64,000 nucleotides of DNA from Bacillales bacterium UBA4694 (GTDB taxonomy: Bacteria; Bacillota_I; Bacilli_A; RFN20; CAG-288): positions 32,921-96,920 of the forward strand of contig DHKM01000035.1 in the NCBI GenBank assembly GCA_002404835.1, written 5' to 3'. The notes beneath the pieces were generated by a model. It made no database searches and was not told the origin of the DNA. It worked only from the letters and a program-made list of their open reading frames with translations. The position numbers and the translations under genes were made by a program. Positions 6,423 through 31,258 of the stretch are shown piece by piece (position 1 is the first letter of the stretch; each line of letters starts with the position of its first letter).

Positions 6423-6423
6423 T

Positions 6424-13761: not shown

Positions 13762-13851
13762 AATTTATATCCTTTTGTCTATATTTTAAAAAAATGAGCA
13801 ATAGAATAAAGAACAAATATGAGTATAATTGTGCATTAAGGGGATGAAATT

Positions 13852-14322
13852 ATGGACTCAAGATTCGAAAACAAGAGAAAGATGATATTCGATGGCTTGA
13901 CTTCTTTTCTGCAAATTCACGAAGAAAAGGAGCTGAACATATCACTTTTATGCCTTTTTTCTAAAATCCAAAGACATTGTTTCTATAACCATTACGAAAA
14001 TCTTTTGCAGTTGTATGATGACTATTCCAAAGACTTGATGGAAACTATCGAAAAAGATATTCATTTGAAATCCCCTGCTTCGGTTACCATGGAAGAAAAA
14101 ATACAGGCTTTTCTTGACGTCATTGAGAAGAACAAACAAAGGATGAACGCATATTATAGGATTCTGAAATACGAATTCTCGCGTGCGAGATTCTACGCCT
14201 TGGAAAAGGCAAGCTTAATTCAGGATTCTGGGTATTCTTTTGAAAACCAAATTCAGGGAAAATTCGTGATGGCTGGAATCAATGCTGTGATTCACAATTT
14301 CTTTTTTTGTCAAAAAGACTGA
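13852..14322 (+). CDS. putative TetR/AcrR-like transcriptional regulator (divergent from the ABC operon)
   Basis: SD AAGGGGA. The N-terminal segment ISLLCLFSKIQRHCFYNHYENLLQL resembles the TetR HTH tail (..FYxHFxxKxxL). The size of 156 aa is rather short for the family. Weak assignment. Confidence 0.45.
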   Translation: MDSRFENKRKMIFDGLTSFLQIHEEKELNISLLCLFSKIQRHCFYNHYENLLQLYDDYSKDLMETIEKDIHLKSPASVTMEEKIQAFLDVIEKNKQRMNAYYRILKYEFSRARFYALEKASLIQDSGYSFENQIQGKFVMAGINAVIHNFFFCQKD

Positions 14323-14395
14323 CGATTCTAAGAAACACATGGTCATGTATGTCGCTTCTTTGATTAAGAAAAATTTGTAATATTTATAGAAAACA

Positions 14396-14423
14396 CGGCA
14401 GCACAGGATGTTCTGTGCTGCCG
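14396..14423. terminator. bidirectional intrinsic terminator
   Basis: 11-bp perfect stem cggcagcacag / ctgtgctgccg with a 6-nt loop, followed by gggttttgttt on the plus strand and tgttttct on the minus strand. Lies between convergent genes. Confidence 0.85.
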
Positions 14424-14431
14424 GGTTTTGT

Positions 14432-17443: not shown

Positions 17444-18087
17444 TATTTGGTTTGCTCCTTCTTTCTAGAAAGGCTGATCTGCCTTCCGAGCTTCTTCTGG
17501 TAGATAAGGATGGCTGCGTCACAGGCTTTGACTGCTGCAGTCACAATGGAGACGATGAGAATGAGTGTCGGATAGAATGTTTTATGGAACATGACTTCCC
17601 CGTTAAGTGCCGGGAGCAGGTATTCCTTATAGTAGTTCTGATATGAGTCGTGGACTTGTGAGGCGTTCTGGATGGCAAACTTGTCGCAGTTGAAGAGCAT
17701 GATGCCTCCGAAAATGGCAAGTACTGCCATGATGATCTCGACGATGGCTTTTTTCTTGTTGGTGCCTTTGCGGTTGAAGTTCTTCATCAGAATGATCGAG
17801 GTGACGATCAGTCCGATAAGCGGGACGAAAAGACCCAAGCAGTTATAGATGTTGAAGGTGAATTCCGTGTAGTTCTGGATGATCATCTCGCCGACGCCGT
17901 AGTAGATGCACTGCCAACCCGGATAAGTGAACGGGTTTTCGTATTTCGTTCCTGGAAGAGTCTGGATTGTGAAGACTCCGGCGAAATTGAAACAGACAAG
18001 CAGGACAGCCAATGCCAAAGAGAATCCTAACGATACGTAGAAGAAGATTCGGTTAAGCTTCTTCACAAGATTCATTCTTTCTTCCAT
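17443..18087 (-). CDS. polytopic membrane protein (214 aa, ~5 TM), unknown function
   Basis: SD GGAGG 6 nt upstream. Several hydrophobic helices (IFFYVSLGFSLALAVLLVCF, LGLFVPLIGLIVTSIILM, IVEIIMAVLAIFGGIMLF, PTLILIVSIVTAAV). Its stop overlaps the GH3 start. Confidence 0.75.
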   Translation of the reverse strand: MEERMNLVKKLNRIFFYVSLGFSLALAVLLVCFNFAGVFTIQTLPGTKYENPFTYPGWQCIYYGVGEMIIQNYTEFTFNIYNCLGLFVPLIGLIVTSIILMKNFNRKGTNKKKAIVEIIMAVLAIFGGIMLFNCDKFAIQNASQVHDSYQNYYKEYLLPALNGEVMFHKTFYPTLILIVSIVTAAVKACDAAILIYQKKLGRQISLSRKKEQTK

Positions 18088-18088
18088 T

Positions 18089-19294
18089 CTATGCCTCCGG
18101 TGTATAGGTCAAGGTGACGTCGATGGTCGAGGTTCCGAAGAAGCTCTTTACCGTAATCTGGAAGGCATAGACGAATTTTCCTTCTTCGTTCTTTATGACT
18201 TCGGTTGGTTCTTCGCCTTCGAAGGTGAGAACGAACTTGTCGCCTTCCTTGGTGTAGGTTCCCTTTTTGCTCAAGGTGTTTCCGGTATAGAGATACATGC
18301 CGTTTTCGTGATCCGTGAGATTGAGGCTGACTTGTTTTTCTCCACCGTCAGGTCCGCTGGTCGTATAGCTTCCCTTGAACTGGTATAGGGTCTTTCCGTC
18401 GAAGTTTTCGTTTGTCATCTGGTCGTTTGTGACGGAAGAGGAGGTGGAGCAGAAGAAGGTGATGGAGCTATAGGAAAGCCTGTAGCCGGGCTTTGAACTG
18501 TCAATGGAATTCTCGGCGACGGTTTCTTTTCCGTTGTCGATCAAAACGAAATTGCTTCCGTCCTTCTTCCATTTGAGATCCAAGGTGACTTTCCGGTCGG
18601 AATCCTTTGCGGTATTGAAGACGACGCTTCCGTTTTTATGGGCATAGAGATAGGCCGTAGCAACGGAATTGTTGTTTCCGGTTGTCGCTCCTTCGAAGAT
18701 ATAGTCGGAATCTCTTTCGTCCCAGGTCTTGTAATCGCTGGGAAGGGTCTTTCCGAAGGCGGAATCCTTAGATTGGAAGAGGGCCACTGCACTTCCTTCA
18801 TCCGTCGTCACGTTGTAATAGAACTGATGTCTTCCCTGGATCTTGATATAATCCGTATGAAGGACGCTGTTCTGGCTGTCTTTGAGGGTGAGGACATAGC
18901 CTTGCTTGTCCTCTAGAATCCATGATCCGCTGACTGTGAAGTCGTATTTGGTGAAGTCTGTTTCTTCTTCCTGGCTGGTGGTATTGGCGTTTTGGGTGTT
19001 GGCATTGAATCCGCCAAGACCACCCGGCCCCATGCCTCCGCCTTGGTTTTTGACTTTTCCGGTGCAGGTTCCTTTGAAGAGAAGGCTTTTGTCCTTGGCT
19101 AGGTCGAAGGCGAGCTTGTACTTGTGGCTTCCTACGGTAACTTCCGTATCAAAGTCTGTCTTGGTGCAGGCGACAAACCTGACATCCTCGTCCTTGGCCT
19201 TGTCGGACTCTTTCTTTTTGTCATCGCACCCTACCAAAAGTACGGGCGTAAGAACAAAAAGCGATAAAAACGAACGTCTTAATAAAGGTTTCAT
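18089..19294 (-). CDS. surface lipoprotein (401 aa) built from the same module type as 380-3247
   Basis: SD AAAGGAA. MKPLLRRSFLSLFVLTPVLLVGC is a signal peptide plus lipobox. Modules such as LNLTDHENGMYLYTGNTLSKKGTYTKEGDKFVLTFEG...EEGKFVYAFQI match the hxhxxxDGxYxF...G(T/S)(Y/W)x...xLT pattern of the 955-aa lipoprotein. Confidence 0.85.
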   Translation of the reverse strand: MKPLLRRSFLSLFVLTPVLLVGCDDKKKESDKAKDEDVRFVACTKTDFDTEVTVGSHKYKLAFDLAKDKSLLFKGTCTGKVKNQGGGMGPGGLGGFNANTQNANTTSQEEETDFTKYDFTVSGSWILEDKQGYVLTLKDSQNSVLHTDYIKIQGRHQFYYNVTTDEGSAVALFQSKDSAFGKTLPSDYKTWDERDSDYIFEGATTGNNNSVATAYLYAHKNGSVVFNTAKDSDRKVTLDLKWKKDGSNFVLIDNGKETVAENSIDSSKPGYRLSYSSITFFCSTSSSVTNDQMTNENFDGKTLYQFKGSYTTSGPDGGEKQVSLNLTDHENGMYLYTGNTLSKKGTYTKEGDKFVLTFEGEEPTEVIKNEEGKFVYAFQITVKSFFGTSTIDVTLTYTPEA

Positions 19295-19354
19295 TTGCTT
19301 AATTTCCTTTCTGGACGATATTTTAGGAAATCAAAAAAAGCGATTCATTCCTTT

Positions 19355-19429
19355 TATGCAAGTGGATACATAAACGGAATTAAATCGCTTTCATATGTAT
19401 GTAAACGGCAATTTTTGCTATGTAAGCGG
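19355..19429. promoter_or_regulatory. cluster of four LytTR-box-like direct repeats upstream of the lipoprotein/membrane/GH3 operon
   Basis: Plus strand: tatgcaagtgg (19355-65), tacataaacgg (19367-77), tatgtaaacgg (19398-408), tatgtaagcgg (19419-29). The last two are exactly 21 bp apart. Read in the direction of the minus-strand operon they are CCGYTTACATA. A TAAAAT -10 candidate lies at 19320-19325 (minus). Confidence 0.6.
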
Positions 19430-20161
19430 TTAGAAAGCCAAAATACTATTCTTTTCGCATAGCTCAAGGAAACGCTTCTTTACCATCTGGAGTTTCCTTC
19501 TGGATATCATCAGTTCCTTGTTGTTCTTCAAAGTCAAAGTCATATCGGTATTGATGCTTTTTATATATTGGAAATTGACCAGATAGCCTTTGTGGATGCG
19601 GATGAATCCTTCGTCATAGAGCTCGGCTTCGAGTTCTTCCATCTTTGAGGATATCAGAATCTTCTCTTCCTCCTTTTTGTTCAGGAATACGTTCTGATAG
19701 ACACCGTTTCCTTCGATATAGAGGATGTCGGATATATCGACATTGATTTTGCTTCCTTGGGATGGTAGGAGGATTTTCCTTTTGACCGGGTTATCCTTTT
19801 TTTCCTTGCAGTATCTCTGGATGACTTCCGCAATGTCCTGCAGGAAGTTCGACTTGCGGACAAAGGCATAGGGCTGCACTTTGAATGTGTCGAAGACCCT
19901 CTCTTCTCTGGACGAGATGAAGATGATGTCCGCATTCTTGTTTGTTTCCCGTATTTCCATGGCCAGCTGGATGCCGTCGACTTCCGGCAGGTTGATGTCC
20001 AAAAAGAATAGATCGAATTCCAAAAGGTGGTTCTTCAGCTGGCTGGGTTTGCTGAAGAGATGGATTTCGGCTATTGTCCTACAGGATTCGAATTCCTTTT
20101 CGATGGCCCCTTTCATGACATTGATGACGCTTTGGTTGTCATCAAGAAGAGCGATGTTCAT
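19430..20161 (-). CDS. LytTR-family response regulator (AgrA/ComE class)
   Basis: SD AAGGAGGA inside the kinase 3' end. The receiver domain has the phospho-acceptor context FDLFFLDINLPEVDG. The C-terminal LytTR domain has ILYIEGNGVYQNVFL...GFIRIHKGYLVNFQYI. Confidence 0.9.
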   Translation of the reverse strand: MNIALLDDNQSVINVMKGAIEKEFESCRTIAEIHLFSKPSQLKNHLLEFDLFFLDINLPEVDGIQLAMEIRETNKNADIIFISSREERVFDTFKVQPYAFVRKSNFLQDIAEVIQRYCKEKKDNPVKRKILLPSQGSKINVDISDILYIEGNGVYQNVFLNKKEEEKILISSKMEELEAELYDEGFIRIHKGYLVNFQYIKSINTDMTLTLKNNKELMISRRKLQMVKKRFLELCEKNSILAF

Positions 20162-21506
20162 TCTCGTTTTCCTCCTTCATTTCCTCTTCCGGATAGCTAA
20201 GCATGATTTTGATGCTGTAGATCGACTCGTTTATGGAGACGTTTTTGGTTCCGTTGTACTTCTTGATGATGGAGGAGATGATTTTCCTTCCAAAGCCGTG
20301 GAGGTTCTTGTCCTCCTTGGTCGTCTTTATTGTTTCCAGTTCCGTCAGTGTGATTCCGTCTTTTACGGGATTCCGGATGTCGATATAGAAAAACTTCTGG
20401 TATTCCCTTAGCCGTATTGTCACGGTCGGGTTCTTCGAACTCTCTTTTGCTCCCCGTATGGCATTGTCAAGGAGATTGCAGAGAAGCGAAGTCAGATCTG
20501 TGGCCAGGATAGGAAGAGAGGCAGGCAGGGCGGTTTTGCAGTCGAAATCGACTTTTAAGGCCCGTGCTTTTGCATATTCCATGTTCAAGATGGAGGAAAT
20601 AATCGGGTTTTTTGTATGGATGAAGGACAGGGGTTCGAGAATTCCGTCTCCGTATTCCTGGAAGAATCTTTCCAGGTCGTCATACCGCTTTTCCTCAAGA
20701 AGGATTTTCATATAGGCGTACTGGTTCTTGCTGTCATGCTTGAGCTCTCTCAGTTTCTCGAGGTTCTGGTCCGAAACCATCAGAAGCTCCTGGTTCTTCT
20801 CCAATTCGTAGTTCTTGGCCTGCAACTTTATTCTTTCCTGGTTTGCAAAGCAGATTTTGTACATCATGATATAGGAGACGATGTTGGTGAGGATGAGGAA
20901 GAAAAAGATGATGAACTGATAGAGACTTAAAGTGATGGTGTTGATATGGATATAGTAGGTGGAGTAGAAGGTGATGCCGACTTCTCCGATGCAGAGAAGC
21001 GAAGAAAAGGCGATTGTGGGGAGCGGAATGTTCTTGATTTTCTTGAAGGGGAATTTGTTCAGAAGAAGGGAATAGGGGATTTCCATTCCCGTAATCAGGT
21101 TTCGGATGATGGTATCGACTTCTTTTCCGAAGGTCATGTCCCTTACTAGAAGAGGAAGGCTTCCGCCGAGTTCTCCGAGAAGGAAGGCCATTCCATAGGT
21201 GCAGTAGAAAGAGATGAACAGGGCCTTGAGGTTTGCTTTTGTCATCAGATAATTATAAAGCAGATAAAAGAGTCCGAGAATCAGATACTTCAGATAGAAA
21301 TGGATGGTCAGTCTTATCGGGATCAGAGGCAGAAGGAAAGTCAGAAGGAAAGAAAGCAGGAAGAGGACGCAAAATTCGGCTAGACAGATTGCTTTCTTTT
21401 TCTTGAAAGGCACGGAAGAGATGACTAATGCTAATACGTAGCTGAGGTTTCCGATGATGATGCTCGGTTCAAATAGGAAATCATTTATGATTTTATCAAT
21501 GGTCAT
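20142..21506 (-). CDS. AgrC/ComD-type (HPK10) membrane sensor histidine kinase
   Basis: About 6-7 N-terminal TM helices. H-box LRELKHDSKNQYAYM, N-box LLCNLLDNAIRG, G-box NLHGFGRKII. The 3' end overlaps the regulator gene by 20 nt. No SD before ATG 21506 (possible leaderless mRNA). Confidence 0.85.
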   Translation of the reverse strand: MTIDKIINDFLFEPSIIIGNLSYVLALVISSVPFKKKKAICLAEFCVLFLLSFLLTFLLPLIPIRLTIHFYLKYLILGLFYLLYNYLMTKANLKALFISFYCTYGMAFLLGELGGSLPLLVRDMTFGKEVDTIIRNLITGMEIPYSLLLNKFPFKKIKNIPLPTIAFSSLLCIGEVGITFYSTYYIHINTITLSLYQFIIFFFLILTNIVSYIMMYKICFANQERIKLQAKNYELEKNQELLMVSDQNLEKLRELKHDSKNQYAYMKILLEEKRYDDLERFFQEYGDGILEPLSFIHTKNPIISSILNMEYAKARALKVDFDCKTALPASLPILATDLTSLLCNLLDNAIRGAKESSKNPTVTIRLREYQKFFYIDIRNPVKDGITLTELETIKTTKEDKNLHGFGRKIISSIIKKYNGTKNVSINESIYSIKIMLSYPEEEMKEENENEHRSS

Positions 21507-21584: not shown

Positions 21585-21806
21585 ATTTCCGTTGTTTTTC
21601 ATGGTGCTCTCTTTTGAGGATGGTTTGTCGGATTTCAGGAAAAAGATGTGAAAAAGAGTCAAAATATGCGTTTATCATCTTTATCTGAAATCCATCCGTC
21701 TTTTTCCTTCCTGGCGCTTGTCTTTTTGTTCCGGTTTTCTTTTCCCGGTGTTAAAATTAACCTGTTACGATTTGTGTTCGAAACGTGTTTATACGGAGGG
21801 CAAAGC

Positions 21807-24800
21807 ATGGTCGACAAACAATACATCAGGATCAATGTCTCGGTAGGAAAAAGCTTTTCCTACCTGGAATATCATACCGATTCCATCATCAAGGCAAGCA
21901 GTACGGACATTTATTACACGGAGTATTCTCTCATCAGGAAAATCGAAATCGACAATCAGTTCGACGAGGATTACGAGAACCTTCTTGTCCACATGGAATT
22001 TTCGAACGAGATTTTCTCTTCTGCGGATTTCTGCACTGGGAAGATACCGGCCAGGAAGAAGACCATCGTCAAAGTGGATCCCAAGATCAGAGTGGATGAG
22101 AAGAGCCTTTACCGCCAGAACGGTGTCTCCACATCGACCATCTTCATCTCTTTGAGGAACCCGAAAGACAATGCGGAGCTTTCTTCTCTTACCAAGACCA
22201 TCAAGGTCCTTCCCCTTACTCAGGCTAGTGACGAGGTTTCCAAGACTCCTCTTCTTTTTGCCAAGTACTGTATCACCTCTTTTCCTCAACTTGTCAGGCT
22301 TCAGCTTGCTGCCAACAAGGAAAAGTCCCTTCTTTCCGGTGTGGAGCATTCCGACATCGTCGGATACCAGAACTCGTCGGTCAACGATATCGTAAACGAG
22401 GTTTCCTGTATTTATCGTGCGGTTCATAATTCCTGCGATATCACTTATTCCAATCCTCCGAATTCTTCTGAAGCCGTCCAGAATGTAAGATTACCGGGTA
22501 CTGTCTTGAAGACGACTCTGGGTACCTGCCTTGATCTGGCCATCCTTTTCTCTTCCTGTCTTCTTCAGGTCGGGCTGCATCCGATTCTTGTCCTGACAGA
22601 CGGTCATGCTTTCTGCGGGTGCTTTCTTCATGAATACGATTCCTTCTCCGGACTTCTCGAAACCAAACCCAATGTCGTCTATTCCGAGGCTGTCGGCGAG
22701 CAAAAAAGCCTCATCCTTTTCGAATGCACGACGGCAACCAATTCTTTTTCTGTTCCTTTCAGCGAGGCGATGAAGATAGGGCAGGAGAACCTTAGAGCCT
22801 ATCGTGGATCTTTTGCCGCCATCGACGTTTATCGTTCCCAGCAGTCCGTATTCAAGCCGATTCCGATTCCCGATGATCAGGGAATCGTCGATTTCAAGGT
22901 TCCTTTCGTCAAATTGAATCCGGAGGAGCTGGAAGACATCAACGAATATCAGGGAACTCCGATACCGGAAAGCGACACCAATGACCGTTTTGCGACTTGG
23001 GAAAAGAAGCTTCTGGATCTTTCCAATTCCAACAAACTGGTCAATTTCCGCTTTTCCAGGGACAAATCCAATTATTCTCTTGTTATTCCGCCCAACGGAA
23101 AAGGGAAGGAAGTCTATGAATTTTTGAAGGAAAAGGATGGCAGTTTTTCCTTGCTTCCTTTTTTGTCTTCGACCATGGACAAGATGGCTTTCGATGCGGC
23201 TGAAAGCAAGAGGAAGGAAAATACGCTTCTTTCCACCGCCGATTGCAAAGTGATGAAGAATCTGATCCGCAAGGACAATGAATCCAGGGAAGAGACCGGT
23301 TCACCGACTCTCTATCTTTCTATCGGTCTTCTGAAAGGAAGTGATACAAGCGGAAAATATACCAGGGAAATCATGGCACCTTTCCTTCTTCTCCCTGTCA
23401 AAATCACGAAGGATAGATACGGAGAAAAGTTCAAGGTCACCTATGATATCGAGGAGATGATGGTCAACAAGACTTTCTTCGAATATTACAAGATGAAAAA
23501 GGGAACCGACTACGACAATCTTTATTCGGTTTCCTCCCACAATGATTTCGATGACATTCTTGCGACTTTGAGAAGCAACCACAGCGGCGACATACAGGTC
23601 GACGAGAACGTCTGCTTCTTTGCCAATTTCCTTTTCACCCACATGGTCATGTGGCAGGACATCGTTGACCGTCAGGACGTTTTGAAGAAAAATGTCATCA
23701 TCCACTCCCTTCTGGAAAACAGATCCTTTGTCAATGACGAGCCTCTGACGGTGGATAATGCCGACGAACTTGACCATATGATCGATTTTGCGGCACCGCT
23801 TCCCTATGATTCCACCCAGCTTCGCGCCATACGGGAGTGCGCCAAAGGAAATTCCTTCATCCTCGACGGGCCTCCAGGGACAGGAAAGAGCCAGACGATC
23901 GTCAATATGATCGTCAATGCCTTCTATCATGGTAAAACAGTGCTCTTCGTCGCCGAAAAACAGGCGGCGCTTGAGGTCGTCAGGCAGCGTCTAGCCACTT
24001 TAGGCCTGGACCAGTTTGCTTTGCAGCTATATTCCTCCAAGACGAACAAGCAGGCTTTCTTCTCCCAACTCCAGAAGGCGATGGATTATGGAAAAAAGAG
24101 CAGCGAAGAAGATTTCGGTAAGACTTGCGAGGATATCGAAGAGGATAAGAGATACATCAATGATGAACTCAGGAGGCTTCATTCCCACAAGAAGCATTTC
24201 TACTCTCTTTATGAAGCCATAACCAAGGAACTTGCCACAAACGACATCAAGAATACGATGGTCTTCTCACCGGAATTCCTTTCTTCCTACAATTCGGAGA
24301 TAAACCAACGCGTCCGCAATGATCTTCATCATATTGTCAAGACGATGAAGGAATTCGACAAGAGCGAGGAGGAGGTCTATCTTTCTAGCATCCAGTTCAG
24401 ACATTACACCTATCAGGATCAGACAAAGACAAGCGCTATTTTTTCTAGGCTTCTTTCTTCTTTGAACAGGCTGAAGGAAAAATATGGGTATTTCATCTCC
24501 CAGCTGAACGTGGAATTCACTCCGACTTTCAATAATATCCAGTATGTGGCTGAGCTTCTCTCTATTTTGAGGGAAAACGAAGTGCGCATTGACTGCTTTG
24601 CAAAGGCGGATGCTTCTTCCTATCTTAAGGATGTAAAGGAATCCATGCTTCAGATCGAATCCTTTGCCAGGCTTGAAAACAGCCTTCTTGGTCAATACGA
24701 TGTCACAAAGATTCCTCTCGTGGATGGAAAAAAGGCCAGAACAGCATATAGCAAGGGAACCAATATCTTCAACAGAAAGAAAGCCAGGAAGAATGCTTTG

Positions 24801-27602
24801 GAAATCCTCTCTCCGATGCTGATTCAGAACAAGGACACGATGGAGGAGGAAGATATCCTCAAAGCCATCGATGCTGCCGAAGAATACAACGAACTTAGAA
24901 ACAATGCGATGCGGTATAAGTTCGTTCTCTCGGATTTCTTCCAGTCTTCCGTCTTGGATGATTTGAAGAACTTTGAGGCCTATCAGAGAATTCTAGGTAA
25001 CACACAGAAACTCTATGATGCTCTCTACCATAATGACATGAGACTATTCGACAGGATCTATACGGTACTTACCGGAATCAATCCAATCCAGAAGGCAGGC
25101 TTGTATCGGGAATATGATTCTTTCCGGGCCGAACTGGATTCCTTCAATCAGGAACTCGAACAGATAGTCAAAGAGTATCCGATGGATTTTTCTTCCATGA
25201 AAAACATGGATTTCTTCAAATCCTATGAAGGACTATTCAGATTGTTTGCTGATGACGAAGGCCAATACAAGATCGACCAGTACACGAAACTTCTGAAGGA
25301 CTTCGATGATTTGAATTCTCTCGGACTTCAGGATTTTGTCCTTTCCATCCAGAAAGGAGAGATTCCGGTTTTGGAAATCGAGCGGACATTCGAACATATT
25401 CTCTGTCATTCTTTTGTGGTGACGAGTTTTGTCATGGATGATGAGAACAACGACTTCGATTCCAAATCCTATGAAGAGAAAATCAAAGATTATCAGGATC
25501 TGATCAGACGATACAACAGCCTTTGCATCGGCGAGACCATTGAGCGGATTACGGACAAATTCCAGGATCCAGAACTCAAGAGGTCGTCTACTACACCGGT
25601 GGGGGCTTTAAGGAAAATCGTCATGAATTCGGGTAAAGGCATATCCATCCGCAATGTCCTCTTCCGCTTCGAGGATCTGATTCGGATGTATTTCCCATGT
25701 TTCTTGATGTCACCTTTGGCAGCTGCTCAGTATCTGGATGTCAATTCAAAGAAATTCGATATCGTCATTTTCGACGAAGCCAGCCAGATTCCGACTTCCG
25801 AAGCCGTGGGTCCGATTGCCAGAGGAAACTCTCTTATTGTTGCCGGCGATCCCCAGCAGATGCCTCCTTCCAACTATTTTGCTGTCGGAATGAAGTCGGA
25901 CGATGAGACTCAGGACGATATGGCCCTCTATCAGGATGCCGAGTCCCTTCTTGATGACTGCATCGCCATCGACATGCCTCGGATCCGTCTTGCTTTCCAC
26001 TATCGATCCAAGCATGAATCCTTGATCCAGTTCTCCAATATGAACTTCTATGGTGGAGATCTTTTCACTTTCCCGTCCAGGGACAATCTTGCTTCGCATA
26101 TCTCCTTTGTCCATGTAAACGGGGACGGAAAGAAGAAGGGCAGCGATATTTCTTCCGAGGAAGTCCAGACGATTCTCCATATTCTTTCCGATATCCTGGA
26201 TAATCCCAAGACGCAGAAGAAGTCTATAGGCATCATCGTCTTCAATTCCAATCAGCAGGAGAAACTTGAGGAGGAAGTGGATGCTTTCCTCAATCGGAAC
26301 CAGAACTATCTTGCCTTGACGCATTGGAATGAAGAGGATTCCACGAAGAAACTCTTTGTGAAGAATCTCGAGAATGTCCAGGGCGATGAAAGGGATATCA
26401 TCATTATGTCCGTCGGTTTTGCCAAAGGAAACGACGGAAAGGCTTTGATCAACGGACCTTTGAGTCTGCCAAAAGGGGAGAGAAGGCTCAATGTCGCTGC
26501 CAGTAGAAGTATCGAGCAGATGATCGTCGTTTCGACTATCTATGCCAGCGATATCGATGAGACGGGAAGGAAGAATCTCGGTGCCAAGAATCTGAAGGAT
26601 TTCCTTCTCTTCAGTCAGAACTGCAAAGAATTTGCCTTCAATGCCTCCAACGATTCGCCGAACAAGGATCTTGCCTATTTCATCAGCAAGGAACTCAAGG
26701 ACAAAGGATATGACTGTGATGTGGCTGTCGGTTCAAGCGAATTCAAGGTCGATCTTGCCGTCAGGAAGAAGGGGCAGAACGATTATCTTCTTGGAATCCT
26801 TCTCGATGAGAAGCCGCTCAATCCCAATGTCTCCTGCCGTGATCGTTTCTATGTGGAGCCGGTCATATTGAAAAATCTCGGCTGGAGGATCGTCCGTGTT
26901 TATACCGTTTCTTTCCTAAGATATCGGCAGCGGACGATCAAGAAGCTTATCGAGATGGTGGAATCCATTCAGGACGAGAGCCAGACGGAAGAGACTCTTT
27001 ATGTTCCTCCGGTCCTTACCGAACATCATGTCACAAGTCAGGACTATGGAATCGTCCCTTATGAACCTTATGAGTTTGTTCCGGATTCTCCTCTTGTCGG
27101 AGATCTTGATCCGGAGGAATACTATTCCGGACTTTCCCAGTTCCTTTCTGAGCTCATCAAAAAAGAGTATCCGATATCAGAAGACCGGATACTCGAACTT
27201 TCCAAGAAGAAAATGGGCCTAAGCAGGCTCAGCCAGAGGAATGTTCAGACCATTCTTGCCCATATCAGGATGCTGAAACCTGTTGAGACAAAGGATCTCG
27301 AGGACAAGACGTTCTACTGGCCTAATGGCTGTGAACTTGCCGTGAAGAATTTCCGTTCTTCCGACCGCGATATTCTCGATATCAGCAAGGAGGAATTCCT
27401 CCCGTTGATCAACAACATCATTCGCATCTACAAGGATATCGACAAAGAAGAACTGATACGTGTCCTGGCTTTACAAATGTCCATCACCAGCATCAATTCG
27501 AAGGTGAGAAGGAAGCTGGAGTATGTGATCCATACCCTCAAAGAAGAGGGAAAGCTGGAAACTGGATATCATGAGCTTTCCGGCTACTTGATGAATTCGT
27601 AA
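21807..27602 (+). CDS. 1931-aa Upf1/DNA2-like SF1 helicase with N-terminal transglutaminase-like core, PD-(D/E)xK-like nuclease module and long C-terminal domain (DUF4011/DUF3320-type architecture)
   Basis: Start placed at ATG 21807 (GGAGGG 6 nt upstream). The GTG 21648 extension is hydrophobic junk-like. Motifs: LDGPPGTGKSQT, FDIVIFDEASQI, IVAGDPQQMPP, HYRSKHESLIQFSN, VQGDERDIIIMSVGF, RLNVAASRS. Nuclease-like EFKVDLAV...GILLDEKP. N-terminal GTCLDLAILF...LTDGHAF. Confidence 0.9.
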   Translation: MVDKQYIRINVSVGKSFSYLEYHTDSIIKASSTDIYYTEYSLIRKIEIDNQFDEDYENLLVHMEFSNEIFSSADFCTGKIPARKKTIVKVDPKIRVDEKSLYRQNGVSTSTIFISLRNPKDNAELSSLTKTIKVLPLTQASDEVSKTPLLFAKYCITSFPQLVRLQLAANKEKSLLSGVEHSDIVGYQNSSVNDIVNEVSCIYRAVHNSCDITYSNPPNSSEAVQNVRLPGTVLKTTLGTCLDLAILFSSCLLQVGLHPILVLTDGHAFCGCFLHEYDSFSGLLETKPNVVYSEAVGEQKSLILFECTTATNSFSVPFSEAMKIGQENLRAYRGSFAAIDVYRSQQSVFKPIPIPDDQGIVDFKVPFVKLNPEELEDINEYQGTPIPESDTNDRFATWEKKLLDLSNSNKLVNFRFSRDKSNYSLVIPPNGKGKEVYEFLKEKDGSFSLLPFLSSTMDKMAFDAAESKRKENTLLSTADCKVMKNLIRKDNESREETGSPTLYLSIGLLKGSDTSGKYTREIMAPFLLLPVKITKDRYGEKFKVTYDIEEMMVNKTFFEYYKMKKGTDYDNLYSVSSHNDFDDILATLRSNHSGDIQVDENVCFFANFLFTHMVMWQDIVDRQDVLKKNVIIHSLLENRSFVNDEPLTVDNADELDHMIDFAAPLPYDSTQLRAIRECAKGNSFILDGPPGTGKSQTIVNMIVNAFYHGKTVLFVAEKQAALEVVRQRLATLGLDQFALQLYSSKTNKQAFFSQLQKAMDYGKKSSEEDFGKTCEDIEEDKRYINDELRRLHSHKKHFYSLYEAITKELATNDIKNTMVFSPEFLSSYNSEINQRVRNDLHHIVKTMKEFDKSEEEVYLSSIQFRHYTYQDQTKTSAIFSRLLSSLNRLKEKYGYFISQLNVEFTPTFNNIQYVAELLSILRENEVRIDCFAKADASSYLKDVKESMLQIESFARLENSLLGQYDVTKIPLVDGKKARTAYSKGTNIFNRKKARKNALEILSPMLIQNKDTMEEEDILKAIDAAEEYNELRNNAMRYKFVLSDFFQSSVLDDLKNFEAYQRILGNTQKLYDALYHNDMRLFDRIYTVLTGINPIQKAGLYREYDSFRAELDSFNQELEQIVKEYPMDFSSMKNMDFFKSYEGLFRLFADDEGQYKIDQYTKLLKDFDDLNSLGLQDFVLSIQKGEIPVLEIERTFEHILCHSFVVTSFVMDDENNDFDSKSYEEKIKDYQDLIRRYNSLCIGETIERITDKFQDPELKRSSTTPVGALRKIVMNSGKGISIRNVLFRFEDLIRMYFPCFLMSPLAAAQYLDVNSKKFDIVIFDEASQIPTSEAVGPIARGNSLIVAGDPQQMPPSNYFAVGMKSDDETQDDMALYQDAESLLDDCIAIDMPRIRLAFHYRSKHESLIQFSNMNFYGGDLFTFPSRDNLASHISFVHVNGDGKKKGSDISSEEVQTILHILSDILDNPKTQKKSIGIIVFNSNQQEKLEEEVDAFLNRNQNYLALTHWNEEDSTKKLFVKNLENVQGDERDIIIMSVGFAKGNDGKALINGPLSLPKGERRLNVAASRSIEQMIVVSTIYASDIDETGRKNLGAKNLKDFLLFSQNCKEFAFNASNDSPNKDLAYFISKELKDKGYDCDVAVGSSEFKVDLAVRKKGQNDYLLGILLDEKPLNPNVSCRDRFYVEPVILKNLGWRIVRVYTVSFLRYRQRTIKKLIEMVESIQDESQTEETLYVPPVLTEHHVTSQDYGIVPYEPYEFVPDSPLVGDLDPEEYYSGLSQFLSELIKKEYPISEDRILELSKKKMGLSRLSQRNVQTILAHIRMLKPVETKDLEDKTFYWPNGCELAVKNFRSSDRDILDISKEEFLPLINNIIRIYKDIDKEELIRVLALQMSITSINSKVRRKLEYVIHTLKEEGKLETGYHELSGYLMNS

Positions 27603-28864
27603 TCGATAGGATTTTCATCCACATTCCACTGGGAATCGAAATGAGAGATTTCCTTTCCCTGTGTGATGTGGATTTTTGCGTTGTCGGAATACCAGAGAAT
27701 CATTCCCTGTACTGTCTTTGCAGTGGATGGAAGATAGATGTCTGTAAGGGAACTGCATAACGAGAAGGCTTCTTCCTGAATGATTTTGATATTGTCAGGC
27801 AGTTTCAGTTTTTTAAGGCTCAGGCATCCGGAGAAGGCTTTTTTCTGGATTTCGATGATGGTTGATGCTAACTGGATTGACTCTAGATGAATGCAGTTCC
27901 GGAAAGCGGATTCTCCGATTTTCTGTATTCCTTCTTCCAGAAATACTGTTTTAATCTGATGGTTGTTAAGGAAGGCATCTTTTCCTATTTCTAAAATGTA
28001 GTATGTTGAGTCGTTGTAGTGGATGCTGGATGGTATCATGATGTCTAATGTGCTTTCGACTGCCTTTCTTACGATGGCATTATGGCCTTTTATCTCATAG
28101 AATAGATTGTCTACTTGAATCATATCCGATGTTTTTTCTTCTTTGATGATAGGTACTTCTTCTTCCGACGCTTCTTCTTTCTTTACGACCGGATCGATTG
28201 TGACCGGTTCGACGACGGGTATGACTTTTTTTATTGGATTCTTTTCCTCTTTTTTCTCTTCTTTATAAGAATAGTCGAAGTTCAGTTTCGGAGCTTTATA
28301 TTGGGCGTGAAAATCTTTTTCATGATAGATGTATTTTTGGCTTGTGAGCTCGCTTTTTCCTTTTTTGGAGACATAGTGGGCATAGACGATATAGGTGATT
28401 TCTTCTTTGTCTTCCTTTCTCTGGAAATAGGAGGAAAGCATGTCGGATTCCAACTTCCGGTATTTCTTTTCCTTGATTTTTGTCTGACGAATCGTGTCAA
28501 TCGGTGTTTTGGTATTCTGAACGGTTTCGTCGAAGAGTTGGACGTATTTTCTGTAATAGTAGAGATTAGTCTTCCTCCTGATGGTCTTTTCCTGGAGTTC
28601 TTTGAGTCTGGATTTCAATATCTTGTCAGGATCGAACCCGGTTACGCTTTTTCTGGCTTTGTATTCTACCCTTTCCCTCATGGTATGGTTATAGGATATA
28701 TCCCAGGAAGGGAATCTGTTGTTGAGTTCTTCCAGCTTTTTAATGATGAGTGAGGTGTTTTTGACTTTTTTCTGTCTTTGCTTCTTTAACTCACAATAGA
28801 GGATGAAAAAGAGGATGAGACAGAAGATGATGATGACAAATATACAGCTTATGATATTGGACAT
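27584..28864 (-). CDS. N-terminally membrane-anchored protein with C-terminal BspA-type leucine-rich repeats (LRR_5-like)
   Basis: TM IISCIFVIIIFCLILFFILY is followed by KKQRQKKVK, then a K/E-rich middle region. C-terminal repeats: ILEIGKDAFLNNHQIKTVFLEEGIQKIGESAFRNCIHLESIQLASTIIEIQKKAFSGCLSLKKLKLPDNIKIIQEEAFSLCSSLTDIYLP. The 3' end overlaps the helicase 3' end by 19 nt. Confidence 0.8.
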   Translation of the reverse strand: MSNIISCIFVIIIFCLILFFILYCELKKQRQKKVKNTSLIIKKLEELNNRFPSWDISYNHTMRERVEYKARKSVTGFDPDKILKSRLKELQEKTIRRKTNLYYYRKYVQLFDETVQNTKTPIDTIRQTKIKEKKYRKLESDMLSSYFQRKEDKEEITYIVYAHYVSKKGKSELTSQKYIYHEKDFHAQYKAPKLNFDYSYKEEKKEEKNPIKKVIPVVEPVTIDPVVKKEEASEEEVPIIKEEKTSDMIQVDNLFYEIKGHNAIVRKAVESTLDIMIPSSIHYNDSTYYILEIGKDAFLNNHQIKTVFLEEGIQKIGESAFRNCIHLESIQLASTIIEIQKKAFSGCLSLKKLKLPDNIKIIQEEAFSLCSSLTDIYLPSTAKTVQGMILWYSDNAKIHITQGKEISHFDSQWNVDENPIDYEFIK

Positions 28865-29023: not shown

Positions 29024-31258
29024 ATGAGAAAAACTAGAATTCTTTCTCTTTTTCTTCTTCTTGCCTTGATCTCGTCTTGCCGGAATAACTCTGCTTCGGT
29101 TTCTCCAACCAGTCCTTCTGCTATTTCAAAGAATTCCCAGACAGGAGGTAGTCATCCTTCTTCTACTTCCCATTCTTCATCTGTTTCTTCTTCGTCCTCT
29201 CCTTCTGTTTTGACTCAAGAACTGATTCAGGATACTTTGTCCCGGATGAAGCAGGGCAACTTTACTTTGGAGTATGATATCGGCTCGAATCATTTTAAGG
29301 ATGTTCTCACCGACCGCTATTTCTATACGGGATATATCAATACGGGTTCTGTTCTTCTTAGGACTTTTTCCGATACTCCTATCAGCTATGATTTTCAGTT
29401 AGTGGATGATGGAAACGATATCGAATTGAAAGGACAGACGTTCAATTCGGAACAGACGGCGCAGGGTCTTACGGATATTTCATACGCAAACAAACTGAAG
29501 AATCTCGATGTTACGGATATTGAGACGTTCCAGGAGGGCAACGTTTTCAAGGTCATGGATTCCGACGTAGTGAATGCTCTTGCGAATCAGCTGGATTTCA
29601 ATGGTTCTCTTGTCCGTGCGGATTTCTACATGGAGAATGGTAAAATCGTCTTCGAGCTGAAGGATTTCGATTCGACGACCAACAAATATTTCACGCCAGA
29701 GGGTGGGAAGGTCACGATTTCCGACGTTGGCTCTTCTTCTTTGGAAGCCATGGAGAATTTTTTGGCGAGCTATAAAAGACCGACTGAGAATCTTGTCTCT
29801 AAGGCAGACAATCTTTTCGGGAATGTTTACTTCGAGTCCGCAGTCTACGATTACACTCTTGATTATAACCGTGCGGATCTGAAAGGATATTCCAATCTCG
29901 AGATTTATCAGGATTTTATCCGAAAAACGGAAATCAACGATGAAGGAATTCCTTATATTGAAACGTATCATAAAAACTCGGATAATACACTGAATGTTGT
30001 TGGTGTTAATGCCAGAAATGAAGTTGTTGATAGAAAGACAACTAAAACATTTGACGATTTTCGACTTGTTGGAAAAGACGGATTTGAATTGAATTTGTTC
30101 TGCAAAATCAGAGAGGATGATGAGTATTATCTTTATTTGGGAAGTGATGCGAAAAAACTTGCTTATAGTATTACCCAGAGTTCTATTTTTTCCAAATATC
30201 CTTGTTTGAAGATACAGGCTAAAGTCAGTGAAGGAAAGGTGACTGAACTTCATTTCTATACGGGTGTTATGCAGGATCGGGACACCGGTGAGTATTTTTT
30301 CTATCGTATTGATACTATGGTTCATGAAGCGAATGTCATCGAACCACCAACTAAGAAAATACCTTCCAAAGACGATTCTAAGATCAAGGGATATCTATCC
30401 AATCTGAACCAAAACGACAGCGTATTTAAAGTGACTGTCGAGGATTCGGCATGGGAAGGAAATGCCAAGACGGAATATTTGAAGGGAAAAGATTTCTATA
30501 TCAAAAAGGATTATGCAAAATCGGGTGAGAATATGAACCCGACCCTTATCCGCGGATACTATAAGAAGAATGGGAAAATCTATCCGTTCTCTTATGATTA
30601 TGAGGAAAAGGTAGAACTTTCCGGTGCTTATGAGGAAAGGGAACTTAAGGACATTGTCGGATTTTCTCTCTCTTCGGAAGTTCTTTCCCTGGAAGGAGAC
30701 AAGATTTCGACTACAGGCGACATTCTTGATCTGGGAAAATCCATTGCTTTTTCTTCCTATCCGGATTATCTGGACCCGACTTCCTTTGTAATGAATGTTA
30801 CCAACGGAAGAATTTCCAACTTGTCCTATGAATATGGTGGGAGCGGATTCAGTGGAAACGAAACCTTCGCTTTCGATTATTCTGATGTGACGATGGATTC
30901 TTCTCTTAAATCATCCTTGGATGAGAAAATCAATGCTCTTCCTCAAAAACTTACATGGGAAGCCAACAACAAATCCATGTATGAGGAAATGGTTGATTAT
31001 TTCGGTGAGGAATTTGCAAGCAAGATTCCGTATCTGAACACCAACCTGGTTTTTGATCATGGAATGGATGATGGAATCTATTTTGGAGTTTATATTTCTT
31101 CAGCCGACATCGGAGATTATATTACCCGGTACAAGGCTTATCTTCTGACTCTTGGATATACGAGCAATGATGATACGACTTTTGTTAATGAAAAAGATAA
31201 AGTAAAACTTGTGGTTTCGACAGACAAGGATGAGTTCTTATCCATTTACAAGCTTTGA
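29024..31258 (+). CDS. surface lipoprotein (744 aa), paralog of 8950-11445
   Basis: SD AAAGGA. MRKTRILSLFLLLALISSC is a signal peptide plus lipobox, followed by a Ser-rich linker. Shared landmarks with 8950-11445 are listed there. Confidence 0.85.
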   Translation: MRKTRILSLFLLLALISSCRNNSASVSPTSPSAISKNSQTGGSHPSSTSHSSSVSSSSSPSVLTQELIQDTLSRMKQGNFTLEYDIGSNHFKDVLTDRYFYTGYINTGSVLLRTFSDTPISYDFQLVDDGNDIELKGQTFNSEQTAQGLTDISYANKLKNLDVTDIETFQEGNVFKVMDSDVVNALANQLDFNGSLVRADFYMENGKIVFELKDFDSTTNKYFTPEGGKVTISDVGSSSLEAMENFLASYKRPTENLVSKADNLFGNVYFESAVYDYTLDYNRADLKGYSNLEIYQDFIRKTEINDEGIPYIETYHKNSDNTLNVVGVNARNEVVDRKTTKTFDDFRLVGKDGFELNLFCKIREDDEYYLYLGSDAKKLAYSITQSSIFSKYPCLKIQAKVSEGKVTELHFYTGVMQDRDTGEYFFYRIDTMVHEANVIEPPTKKIPSKDDSKIKGYLSNLNQNDSVFKVTVEDSAWEGNAKTEYLKGKDFYIKKDYAKSGENMNPTLIRGYYKKNGKIYPFSYDYEEKVELSGAYEERELKDIVGFSLSSEVLSLEGDKISTTGDILDLGKSIAFSSYPDYLDPTSFVMNVTNGRISNLSYEYGGSGFSGNETFAFDYSDVTMDSSLKSSLDEKINALPQKLTWEANNKSMYEEMVDYFGEEFASKIPYLNTNLVFDHGMDDGIYFGVYISSADIGDYITRYKAYLLTLGYTSNDDTTFVNEKDKVKLVVSTDKDEFLSIYKL

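What the first reader, a model, noticed from the sequence alone, without database searches (positions are those of the whole stretch)
21807..27602. Stand-alone 1931-aa SF1 helicase-nuclease of an uncharacterised family: candidate single-gene defence or genome-surveillance system
Seen:
- A complete Upf1/DNA2-like SF1B motif set: LDGPPGTGKSQT near nt 23868, FDIVIFDEASQ with Asp at nt 25773, GDPQQMPP, HYRSKHESLIQFSN, QGDERDIIIMSVGF, RLNVAASRS.
- About 630 residues are inserted between Walker A and Walker B.
- Downstream, EFKVDLAV (Asp codon 26751) and GILLDEKP (DEK at 26805-26813), 18 residues apart, fit a PD-(D/E)xK nuclease core.
- A further ~300-aa tail follows.

Established: this layout corresponds to proteins usually labelled only DUF4011/AAA_11/AAA_12/DUF3320. 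Helicases of this class fused to nucleases act in phage defence (Nhi, Hna, Mokosh-type helicases).

Inference: the gene has its own SD, no methyltransferase or other partner, sits between unrelated surface-protein genes and next to a quorum-type two-component system, and is the largest gene in an accessory-looking region. No function has been shown for this exact architecture as far as I know.
Basis: partly seen in the sequence, partly recalled or inferred. Interest (0 to 1): 0.7.

Follow-up and report, generated by a model that had tools for sequence, protein, structure and literature searches.

The report
Divergent ProA-like anti-phage helicase-nuclease gene
This 1931-residue gene is real, but it is a divergent relative of a helicase-nuclease family that databases already label as anti-phage (ProA, Hhe), and in its lineage it always sits beside a small membrane-anchored leucine-rich-repeat gene, so it may not work alone.

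Summary

Its domains, in order, are:
- an N-terminal beta-sandwich
- a transglutaminase-like Cys-His-Glu core
- DUF4011
- an SF1B (Upf1/DNA2-type) helicase split by a ~550-aa helical insertion
- a Vsr-type MTES_1575 nuclease
- two winged helices

The family is not uncharacterised. The protein matches NCBIfam NF058533 'anti-phage protein ProA' end to end at 1176 bits, below the 1500-bit equivalog cut-off. It also matches PADLOC candidate PDC-S37 (1.4e-240) and, in part, Hhe. The same domain layout was described computationally in 2013. Relatives that are 27-28% identical pass the ProA cut-off, so this is a sister clade from gut Bacillota.

'Stand-alone' is doubtful. In 9 of 10 loci of the clade at or above about 43% identity, across five different flank contexts, a homologous 390-436-aa gene lies convergent to the helicase gene, usually overlapping its 3' end. 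That gene encodes a membrane-anchored LRR_5 protein and co-diverges with the helicase.

The gene is also not in an accessory island. The helicase-LRR block holds a conserved chromosomal position in three related genomes. The neighbouring two-component/GH3 block is the variable part.

Verdict: an ordinary new member of a known kind, with one lead worth testing.

The parts
21795..21799 (+). Shine-Dalgarno GGAGG, 7 nt before ATG 21807
   Evidence: Read directly from the sequence.
21807..27602 (+). ProA-like helicase-nuclease gene, 1931 aa
   Evidence: Translation. NCBIfam ProA 1176 bits, covering profile positions 7-1900 of 1903. PADLOC PDC-S37 1.4e-240. 241 homologues at E<=1e-10.
21807..22211 (+). 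N-terminal beta-sandwich (aa 1-135)
   Evidence: AF2 model with pLDDT 91.5, strands at 7-134. Foldseek gives weak hits to PapD-like/Ig-like sandwiches.
22359..22841 (+). Transglutaminase-like (papain-fold) core, aa ~185-345; Cys241, His267, Glu306
   Evidence: Sub-threshold Pfam DUF553 and Transglut_core hits. C241 in 42/46, H267 in 43/46, E/D306 in 42/46, D340 in 46/46. Weak Foldseek hits to PNGase, 3isr, 3kd4 and TG2. Homologue P0247 reaches the Transglut_core cut-off. Domain named in PMC3710099.
23007..23483 (+). DUF4011 (aa 401-559)
   Evidence: Pfam 1.4e-20.
23805..24083 (+). Helicase RecA1, N-terminal part with Walker A GPPGTGKSQT (K694)
   Evidence: Pfam AAA_11. K694 invariant in 46/46. 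Profile hits to IGHMBP2, Sen1, DNA2 and Upf1.
24084..25676 (+). ~530-aa poorly conserved insertion in RecA1, probably a helical bundle or coiled coil
   Evidence: Mean identity 0.22, against 0.57-0.70 for the helicase cores. Weak profile matches to long helical bundles, E 0.003-0.5.
25677..26546 (+). Helicase motifs II-VI (DEAS D1323/E1324, GDPQQMPP, HYRS, QGDERD, RRLNVAASR)
   Evidence: Pfam AAA_12. All tested residues invariant in 46/46.
26682..26954 (+). Vsr-type restriction-endonuclease-fold domain MTES_1575 (aa 1626-1716); D1649, D1667, K1669, R1678, D1679, W1693
   Evidence: Pfam 54.7 bits, cut-off 38.2. The AF2 model has alpha-beta-beta-beta-alpha-beta topology, with D1649 at the start of strand 2 and D1667 just after strand 3. 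Foldseek 3hrl and 3r3p with TMt 0.65-0.77 but E>0.1. Residue conservation.
27126..27551 (+). Two winged-helix domains (aa ~1774-1915), the DUF3320 equivalent
   Evidence: AF2 pLDDT >94 for most of the stretch. Foldseek hits to Fur/Zur, BlaI, ROQ and ScpB, all E>0.1. The ProA and PDC-S37 profiles cover it. PMC3710099 states that the wHTH pair overlaps DUF3320.
27584..28864 (-). Conserved convergent neighbour: 426-aa protein with an N-terminal TM helix, a conserved N-domain, a KE-rich linker and a C-terminal LRR_5 unit; its 3' end overlaps the helicase gene by 19 nt
   Evidence: Pfam LRR_5. Alignment of 9 orthologues. Same position in L001/2, L003, L007, L088, L090, L123, L124 and L125. Co-divergence r=0.98. 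Only 13 full-length homologue clusters.
27165..27194 (-). Terminator-like hairpin (11-bp stem plus T run) on the minus strand inside the helicase 3' coding region; possible terminator of the LRR gene
   Evidence: A similar hairpin sits at the homologous place in L123 but not in L124. The total count of such sites is not above the shuffle expectation.

Best explanation
The gene encodes a large, ATP-driven, nucleic-acid-targeting immunity enzyme of the DUF4011 helicase-nuclease kind. It belongs to a sister clade of ProA and is more distant from Hhe.

Shown by computation:
- An intact SF1B (Upf1/DNA2/IGHMBP2-type) motor.
- A Vsr/MTES_1575 restriction-endonuclease-fold domain with conserved Asp1649 and Asp1667 in the canonical strand-2 and strand-3 positions.
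- Two C-terminal winged helices.
- An N-terminal beta-sandwich plus a transglutaminase-like Cys-His-Glu module.

Inferred mechanism: the winged helices and DUF4011 bind invader DNA, such as replication or entry intermediates. The motor translocates 5'->3' using ATP. The Vsr-type domain nicks or cleaves the DNA it is fed. The N-terminal transglutaminase-like module and the long helical insertion act as a sensor or autoinhibitory element, or as a second catalytic activity (cysteine peptidase or cross-linker).

In this Bacillota clade the enzyme is inherited together with a membrane-anchored LRR_5 protein whose LRR is predicted to face the cytoplasm. That protein may localise or regulate the enzyme.
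For: Family matches:
- End-to-end match to NCBIfam 'anti-phage protein ProA'. The N-terminal 390 aa match only ProA, at 1.4e-50.
- PADLOC PDC-S37 at 1.4e-240 and Hhe at 1.8e-102.
- Homologues P0066, P0114 and P0079 pass the ProA cut-off at 1950-2212 bits.

Domains:
- Helicase motifs invariant in 46/46. Profile hits to IGHMBP2, Sen1, DNA2 and Upf1.
- MTES_1575 above the Pfam cut-off. AF2 core topology and structural neighbours 3hrl and 3r3p.
- Transglutaminase-like triad conserved, with a confident AF2 model.

Distribution typical of defence genes:
- More than 596 hits among GTDB species representatives, in many phyla.
- 460 plasmids.
- About 10 full-length copies in IMG/VR contigs.
- Neighbours of homologues include Wadjet JetABCD, a PLD-DEAD-DUF3427 helicase, Schlafen-AlbA_2/HATPase_c_4 proteins and a serine recombinase.
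Against: - The score is below the ProA equivalog cut-off (1176 against 1500) and far below that of Hhe (524 against 2000).
- I could not retrieve the publication behind the ProA name in 10 paper searches, so the anti-phage evidence rests on a database label.
- The canonical Glu of the family's E-x-D-G motif is Leu1665 here (Leu in 34 and Ile in 7 of 46 homologues) and the canonical His is Asn. Nuclease activity is therefore unproven.
- In this genome the gene lies in a conserved chromosomal locus with no defence island.
- A DUF4011 gene is a core gene in P. aeruginosa (PMC10250203).
- No experiment exists for this clade.
Confidence: 0.65

Rival explanations
1. It is not a single-gene system. 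The helicase-nuclease and the convergent membrane-anchored LRR_5 protein form an obligate two-gene unit. The LRR protein would act as a membrane-proximal sensor, tether or regulator, and the helicase-nuclease as the effector.
For: - A homologous LRR_5 gene sits in the same convergent position in 9 of 10 loci of the clade at or above about 43% identity. Its 3' end overlaps the helicase gene in 7 of the 9.
- Flanks differ on both sides in five contexts.
- Pairwise identities of the two proteins correlate, Pearson 0.98.
- Only 13 full-length homologue clusters exist. Five of them share their exact longest-contig length with a helicase cluster, three of them pairs not otherwise examined.
- A strongly basic stretch follows the TM helix in all nine orthologues, which predicts a cytoplasmic LRR by the positive-inside rule.
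Against: - The genes are convergent, so they are not co-transcribed.
- The partner is absent next to P0015, P0021, P0025 and P0038 and from all 80 remote loci. ProA-type proteins clearly exist without it.
- BspA-type LRR_5 proteins are usually surface proteins, and another large one lies in the window.
- The topology is only predicted.
- Three of the loci share wider synteny, so part of the signal is vertical inheritance.
- The reciprocal locus search found nothing usable.
Confidence: 0.25
2. It is a chromosomal genome-maintenance enzyme (repair, R-loop or replication-intermediate processing, or restriction of plasmid DNA) and not a phage-defence gene. The 'anti-phage' label would not transfer to this clade.
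For: - The block is at the same locus in three related genomes, with conserved flanks: FMN reductase 76%, CAT 82%, 3HCDH 86.5% identity.
- The window carries DnaB, GdpP, RlmH and FakA and no other defence system.
- There are no flanking repeats and no adjacent tRNA.
- The P. aeruginosa DUF4011 gene is present in every isolate.
- The nearest solved relatives are DNA2, Sen1, IGHMBP2 and Upf1.
Against: - Other clade members sit in different contexts.
- Family members are plasmid-borne and found in viral contigs.
- Homologues lie next to Wadjet and other defence-type genes.
- Curated ProA and Hhe models and the PADLOC candidate are all defence labels.
- The helicase (70% identity to L123) and especially the LRR partner (50%) evolve faster than the flanking metabolic genes.
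Confidence: 0.15
3. The Vsr-type domain is catalytically degenerate in this clade. The protein would act as a translocase or sensor whose effector is the transglutaminase-like cysteine enzyme (proteolysis, deamidation or cross-linking), or it would act by ATP-dependent displacement alone.
For: - The canonical Glu (E-x-D-G, as in P0114 and P0119) is Leu1665, and the canonical His is Asn1672.
- K1669 is only 20/46 conserved.
- The Cys-His-Glu triad is at least as well conserved as the nuclease residues.
- A helicase-less protein, P0303, combines the transglutaminase-like module with SAP and DUF3320 domains.
Against: - D1649 (42/46), D1667 (44/46), R1678, D1679 and W1693 remain conserved.
- D1649...D1667-x-K1669 sits exactly where a classical PD-(D/E)xK site lies in the AF2 model.
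- Members that pass the ProA cut-off, such as P0066, also lack the Glu.
- E. coli Vsr itself lacks the second acidic residue (from my own knowledge).
Confidence: 0.1

Closest known systems
ProA (NCBIfam NF058533.1, 'anti-phage protein ProA', equivalog, 1903-position profile)
   Same: The architecture and length are collinear from end to end, covering profile positions 7-1900. The beta-sandwich/transglutaminase-like N-terminus is included, and no other NCBIfam or PADLOC model covers it. Aligned homologues at 27-28% identity pass the cut-off.
   Different: The score of 1176 bits is below the 1500-bit equivalog cut-off. This is a separate clade of gut Bacillota MAGs, as are P0025 and P0042 at about 1170-1195 bits. 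This clade carries a conserved LRR_5 neighbour that was not seen next to remote family members. I did not find the primary literature for ProA.
Hhe (Gao et al. 2020, Science 369:1077, from memory; NCBIfam NF042953; PADLOC PDLC02194; DefenseFinder Gao_Hhe)
   Same: DUF4011, an SF1 helicase, a Vsr-type nuclease and a DUF3320 tail. It is a single large protein reported as anti-phage.
   Different: Only the C-terminal half matches well: 524 bits against a cut-off of 2000, and PADLOC covers aa 1221-1719. No Hhe model matches the N-terminal 390 aa. DefenseFinder detects Gao_Hhe only in Proteobacteria (PMC9090908).
PDC-S37 (PADLOC-DB v2 single-gene phage-defence candidate)
   Same: A 1.4e-240 match covering aa 390-1919 against profile positions 5-1540 of 1550.
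   Different: The PDC-S37 profile starts at DUF4011 and lacks the N-terminal module. It is a computational candidate, and I found no paper that mentions it.
MTES_1575-type architecture (Anantharaman et al. 2013, PMC3710099)
   Same: Transglutaminase + SF-I helicase + Vsr-family REase + two wHTH that overlap DUF3320.
   Different: The prototype also carries a HEPN RNase domain. No HEPN domain was detected here.
Nhi, Hna and Mokosh MkoA/MkoC (Upf1-like helicase defence proteins)
   Same: An SF1B Upf1-like motor combined with a nuclease in phage defence. There are weak MkoA/MkoC matches to the RecA2 region.
   Different: Domain order and nuclease type differ. These proteins have no DUF4011, no transglutaminase-like module and no wHTH tail. 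The similarity is limited to the helicase core.

Membership tests
ProA (NCBIfam NF058533 equivalog) | Whole-protein HMM score at or above the curated cut-off of 1500 bits | tested here: not met
   1176 bits. P0066, P0114 and P0079 score 1950-2212 bits and pass.
ProA (NCBIfam NF058533 equivalog) | Collinear full-length architecture including the N-terminal module | tested here: met
   One stretch, aa 38-1892 against profile positions 7-1900 of 1903. N-terminal 390 aa at 1.4e-50, tail at 8.4e-13.
ProA (NCBIfam NF058533 equivalog) | Demonstrated anti-phage activity | not testable with these tools
   Needs an experiment. The source publication was not found.
Hhe (NCBIfam NF042953 / PADLOC Hhe) | Whole-protein HMM score at or above 2000 bits | tested here: not met
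   524 bits, with the best stretch at aa 980-1731 only.
PDC-S37 (PADLOC) | Near full-length match to the PDLC05009 profile | tested here: met
   1.4e-240, profile positions 5-1540 of 1550. No curated cut-off is given, and the protein has about 390 extra N-terminal residues.
SF1B Upf1-like helicase | Walker A, DEAS Walker B, motif III, motif V/VI arginines | tested here: met
   K694, D1323, E1324, Q1351, R1400, R1529, R1560 and R1567 all 46/46. AAA_11 and AAA_12 above cut-off. PDB profile hits to IGHMBP2, Sen1, DNA2 and Upf1.
Vsr-type REase MTES_1575 (PD-(D/E)xK clan) | Pfam PF18741 score above the gathering cut-off | tested here: met
   54.7 bits against 38.2, aa 1626-1716.
Vsr-type REase MTES_1575 (PD-(D/E)xK clan) | Restriction-endonuclease core fold | tested here: inconclusive
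   The AF2 model shows alpha-beta-beta-beta-alpha-beta at pLDDT about 86-95. Foldseek 3hrl, 3r3p and 4qbo give TMt 0.59-0.77, but all E>0.1 because the model is multi-domain.
Vsr-type REase MTES_1575 (PD-(D/E)xK clan) | Complete canonical catalytic set (D ... E-x-D-G ... H) | tested here: not met
   D1649 and D1667 are kept. The Glu is Leu1665 and the His is Asn1672. An alternative D1667-x-K1669 is present, with K in 20/46.
Transglutaminase-like / papain-fold cysteine enzyme | Pfam Transglut_core or DUF553 above cut-off | tested here: not met
   14.4 against 23 and 15.3 against 20.5 bits. Homologue P0247 reaches 23.4 against 23.
Transglutaminase-like / papain-fold cysteine enzyme | Conserved Cys-His-Asp/Glu triad on the expected helix and strands | tested here: met
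   C241 in 42/46 at a helix N-terminus, H267 in 43/46 and E/D306 in 42/46 on strands. The 3-D geometry was not measured.
Transglutaminase-like / papain-fold cysteine enzyme | Fold similarity to solved transglutaminase-fold proteins | tested here: inconclusive
   Foldseek hits to PNGase (2f4m, 3esw), 3isr, 3kd4 and TG2 at E 8e-4 to 9e-3, with low TM scores for the two-domain model.

The most novel reading that the evidence does not exclude
In this Bacillota clade the ProA-like enzyme is the effector half of a previously unrecognised two-gene system. Its partner is a fast-evolving, membrane-anchored protein with a cytoplasm-facing LRR. That partner senses infection at the membrane, or tethers the enzyme there. 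The conserved Cys-His-Glu transglutaminase-like domain is catalytically active and takes part in activation. The logic of a membrane sensor paired with a helicase-nuclease is loosely comparable to Zorya, but the parts are unrelated.
Probability: 0.2. Interest if true: 0.6.

Novelty: new member of a known kind. Interest (0 to 1): 0.33.

Why it matters
If the defence reading holds, this clade extends the ProA/Hhe kind of giant helicase-nuclease into uncultured gut Bacillota. The current equivalog models and DefenseFinder's Hhe rule do not name them there.

Two features would deserve experiments. One is the conserved Cys-His-Glu transglutaminase-like module, whose role in any member is unknown to me. 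The other is the co-inherited membrane-anchored LRR gene, which could be a sensor or regulator.

Otherwise this is an annotation refinement, not a discovery.

Tried and rejected
- Ten literature searches for ProA, PDC-S37, DUF4011 and transglutaminase-helicase defence found no paper describing ProA. Gao 2020 is not held.
- I tried to obtain an E. coli PGAP name through an Enterobacterales homologue. There was no match.
- I tried a reciprocal test of the LRR partner in metagenome contigs. The first alignment was too divergent. The second returned one irrelevant fragment. I replaced this test by matching contig lengths between protein clusters.
- Direct sequence search of the PDB found only helicase cores and no solved ProA or Hhe.
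- Foldseek on both AF2 models gave consistent but statistically weak hits.
- I rejected the longer ORF from GTG 21648 and the 1978-aa call of P0001 as the true start.
- I rejected a mobile-element context. There are no flanking repeats, and no integrase or tRNA next to the gene.
- I rejected a link to the LytTR two-component system. It lies in a block that is absent from L123.
- I rejected L004's convergent 411-aa gene as a partner homologue, at 16% identity.
Full report
**Observation**

The ORF from ATG 21807 to the stop at 27602 translates to 1931 residues. The mechanical ORF list extends it upstream to GTG 21648, and a public gene call of the identical protein is 1978 aa (P0001). ATG 21807 is the better start for two reasons. 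It is preceded by GGAGG at 21795-21799. All 45 aligned homologues start at the aligned Met.

Walker A Lys694 and Walker B Asp1323 are 629 residues apart. An ORF of this length with these profile scores is far beyond chance.

**Anatomy**

Pfam finds four domains:
- DUF4011 at 401-559
- AAA_11 at 667-857
- AAA_12 at 1380-1576
- the Vsr-type nuclease MTES_1575 at 1626-1716 (54.7 bits, cut-off 38.2)

All helicase motif residues tested are invariant in 46 sequences. A family profile finds IGHMBP2, Sen1, DNA2 and Upf1 as the nearest solved proteins, that is, the SF1B Upf1-like group.

The stretch between the two halves of RecA1, about aa 760-1290, is the least conserved part. Its mean identity is 0.22, against 0.57-0.70 for the motor. 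It weakly resembles long helical bundles.

**N-terminal module**

The model shows a beta-sandwich (1-135) followed by an alpha/beta domain.

Several lines of evidence assign that second domain to the transglutaminase-like fold:
- Sub-threshold Pfam hits to DUF553 and Transglut_core.
- A conserved G-T-C241-L-D motif, G-H267-A-F, and E306. One homologue reads F-D-P-T at this position, which from my own knowledge resembles the classical transglutaminase motif.
- Weak Foldseek hits to PNGase, the putative cysteine proteases 3isr and 3kd4, and transglutaminase 2.
- A homologue of the module that just reaches the Pfam Transglut_core cut-off (P0247).

**Nuclease and tail**

The C-terminal 342 residues were modelled at pLDDT 86.8. 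The model shows an alpha-beta-beta-beta-alpha-beta core. Asp1649 lies at the start of strand 2 and Asp1667-Glu-Lys1669 directly after strand 3. Two three-helix winged-helix units follow.

Structural neighbours are Vsr-like or REase-like proteins (3hrl, 3r3p, 4qbo) and winged-helix regulators. All have E>0.1 because the model is a string of small domains.

[quoted passage not shown] They noted that the wHTH pair overlaps DUF3320 (PMC3710099).

**Nuclease site**

The details differ, however.

Canonical family members such as P0114 and P0119 read G-V-E-C-D-G-A-M-Y-H. In the window protein and most relatives the Glu is Leu1665 (Leu in 34 and Ile in 7 of 46) and the His is not kept. Asp1649 (42/46), Asp1667 (44/46), Arg1678, Asp1679 and Trp1693 are conserved.

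Lys1669 is present in 20 of 46 sequences, mostly the nearer relatives. It gives a classical D...D-x-K arrangement. Members that pass the ProA cut-off, such as P0066, also lack the Glu. Activity is plausible but unproven.

**What it is related to**

- NCBIfam's equivalog NF058533 'anti-phage protein ProA' matches in one stretch from aa 38 to 1892 (profile positions 7-1900 of 1903). The score is 1176 bits, below the curated 1500.
- The N-terminal 390 aa match ProA only, at 1.4e-50. They match no PADLOC model and not Hhe.
- PADLOC's single-gene candidate PDC-S37 matches aa 390-1919 at 1.4e-240. Hhe matches the C-terminal half.
- Three aligned homologues that are only 27-28% identical to the window protein pass the ProA cut-off at 1950-2212 bits. 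Two nearer ones, P0025 and P0042, score about 1170-1195 like the window protein.

The protein therefore belongs to a sister clade of ProA with the same architecture. By NCBI's own criterion it is not a ProA equivalog. I could not find the paper behind the ProA name, so the anti-phage attribution rests on the database label.

**Size and spread of the family**

- 241 homologues at E<=1e-10 in the 90% clusters.
- 980 representative clusters at E<=1e-10 for the N-terminal module alone. Most are about 1900-2000 aa.
- More than 596 hits in GTDB species representatives, spread over Bacillota, Bacteroidota, Pseudomonadota, Verrucomicrobiota, Planctomycetota and others.
- 460 plasmids.
- About ten full-length copies in IMG/VR contigs.

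**Context in the window**

The window is chromosomal. It carries DnaB, GdpP, RlmH, FakA, an EF-G-like protein and two tRNAs. Apart from a generic SNF2/SNF2_assoc helicase at 3315-6485, it holds no other PADLOC-recognisable protein. No repeats bracket the gene.

I compared the window with L123 (helicase 70% identical) and L001 (64%). The downstream genes are syntenic:
- the LRR gene
- a 744-aa unknown protein (66% identical to its L123 counterpart)
- CAT (82%)
- 3HCDH (86.5%)

The genes that directly precede the helicase in L123 are an FMN reductase (76%) and an 829-aa protein (67%). In the window they lie at 8210-11445.

So the roughly 10-kb stretch at 11.5-21.5 kb is the variable segment. It holds an ABC ATPase, GH3, two unknown proteins, and the LytTR regulator with its kinase. 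The helicase itself is not the variable part.

**Conserved neighbour**

The gene at 27584-28864(-) encodes a 426-aa protein with four parts:
- an N-terminal hydrophobic helix followed by a strongly basic stretch
- a conserved ~170-aa region with no family match
- a Lys/Glu-rich linker
- one BspA-type LRR_5 unit

By the positive-inside rule the bulk of the protein should face the cytoplasm. This is an inference.

Homologues of 387-436 aa, 23-50% identical over the full length, occupy the same convergent position next to helicase homologues of about 45-70% identity in L001/L002, L003, L007, L088, L090, L123, L124 and L125. Across the nine loci the overlap or gap between the two genes is 19, 4, 8, -1, -82, 16, 16, 16 and 26 nt.

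The loci fall into five groups whose other flanks differ on both sides. Pairwise identities of the two proteins track each other (Pearson 0.98, Spearman 0.70). The LRR protein is always the more divergent of the two.

A database search finds only 13 full-length homologue clusters. All other hits share only the LRR unit. Five of the 13 have exactly the same longest-contig length as a helicase cluster, including three pairs I had not looked up.

The partner is absent next to P0015 (a serine recombinase sits there instead), P0021 (next to Wadjet and SbcCD), P0025 and P0038. It is also absent from all 80 remote loci.

The pair thus looks like a co-inherited two-gene unit specific to this clade. 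Whether the link is functional is open.

**Mechanism**

My best-supported reading has a confidence of about 0.65 for the general statement and much less for the steps. The protein is an ATP-driven helicase-nuclease that acts on foreign nucleic acid, as inferred for ProA and Hhe.
- The winged helices and DUF4011 would bind DNA.
- The SF1B motor would translocate 5'->3'.
- The Vsr-type domain would cut.
- The N-terminal transglutaminase-like module and the helical insertion would sense or gate.

Rivals are listed with their tests: an obligate two-gene system with the LRR protein, a chromosomal genome-maintenance enzyme, and a nuclease-degenerate variant whose effector is the cysteine enzyme. The maintenance reading draws on the fixed locus in three relatives. 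It also draws on the report that a DUF4011 gene is a core gene flanking a defence hotspot in P. aeruginosa (PMC10250203).

**Verdict**

The interpretation as a helicase-nuclease defence candidate is reasonable, but it is already embodied in public models. 'Uncharacterised', 'stand-alone' and 'accessory region' are not supported.

This is a new, sub-threshold member of a known kind. The one lead with some novelty is the co-inherited membrane-anchored LRR gene. The unexplained but conserved transglutaminase-like catalytic triad also deserves attention.

Noticed in passing
window 27584-28864 (-): A 426-aa membrane-anchored LRR_5 protein is convergent to the helicase gene and overlaps it by 19 nt. 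Orthologues hold the same position in 9 of 10 related loci and co-diverge with the helicase. The basic stretch after the TM helix predicts a cytoplasmic LRR domain.
   Followed up: yes
window 11495-21506: This roughly 10-kb block holds an ABC-type ATPase (657 aa), a GH3 glycosidase, two unknown proteins, a LytTR response regulator and a GHKL kinase. It is absent from the syntenic locus L123, where the FMN-reductase gene and an 829-aa gene directly precede the helicase. The spot upstream of the helicase is therefore variable between relatives.
   Followed up: partly
window 27165-27194 (-): A strong terminator-like hairpin (11-bp stem, T run) lies on the minus strand about 390 nt inside the helicase 3' coding region. 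It overlaps the conserved E-Y-P-I-S codons. A similar hairpin is found at the same place in L123 but not in L124. If used, the LRR transcript would be antisense to the helicase 3' end.
   Followed up: partly
window 27126-27380 (aa ~1778-1851 of the helicase): The first winged-helix unit gives a weak, sub-threshold match to NCBIfam 'retron St85 family effector protein' (3.8e-05, 23.5 bits against a cut-off of 100).
   Followed up: no
P0303 (1145 aa): This helicase-less protein combines a SAP domain, the same transglutaminase-like module (residues 601-925) and DUF3320. The module and the winged-helix tail therefore also occur without the motor.
   Followed up: partly
L004 1-7754; L007 3196-6072 and 13559-16394; L088 4985-7861; L125 194-2893: Homologues of the helicase lie next to a complete Wadjet JetABCD plus SbcCD (L004). 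In L007, L088 and L125 they lie next to a DEAD-helicase/DUF3427 protein, which also carries a PLD-nuclease domain in L007 and L088. NUDIX (L007, L088) and Schlafen-AlbA_2/HATPase_c_4 genes (L007) are also nearby.
   Followed up: partly
window 29024-31258 (+), 8923-11445 (+), 38007-40319 (-), 49043-51706 (-): These are large proteins (744-887 aa) with no Pfam, NCBIfam or PADLOC match. The 744-aa gene is divergently transcribed from the LRR gene and is syntenic in L123 and L001.
   Followed up: no
window 3315-6485 (-): A 1056-aa SNF2 helicase with the bacterial SNF2_assoc domain matches ZorD, DpdE and DrmD models in PADLOC. No other component of those systems is present in the window.
   Followed up: partly
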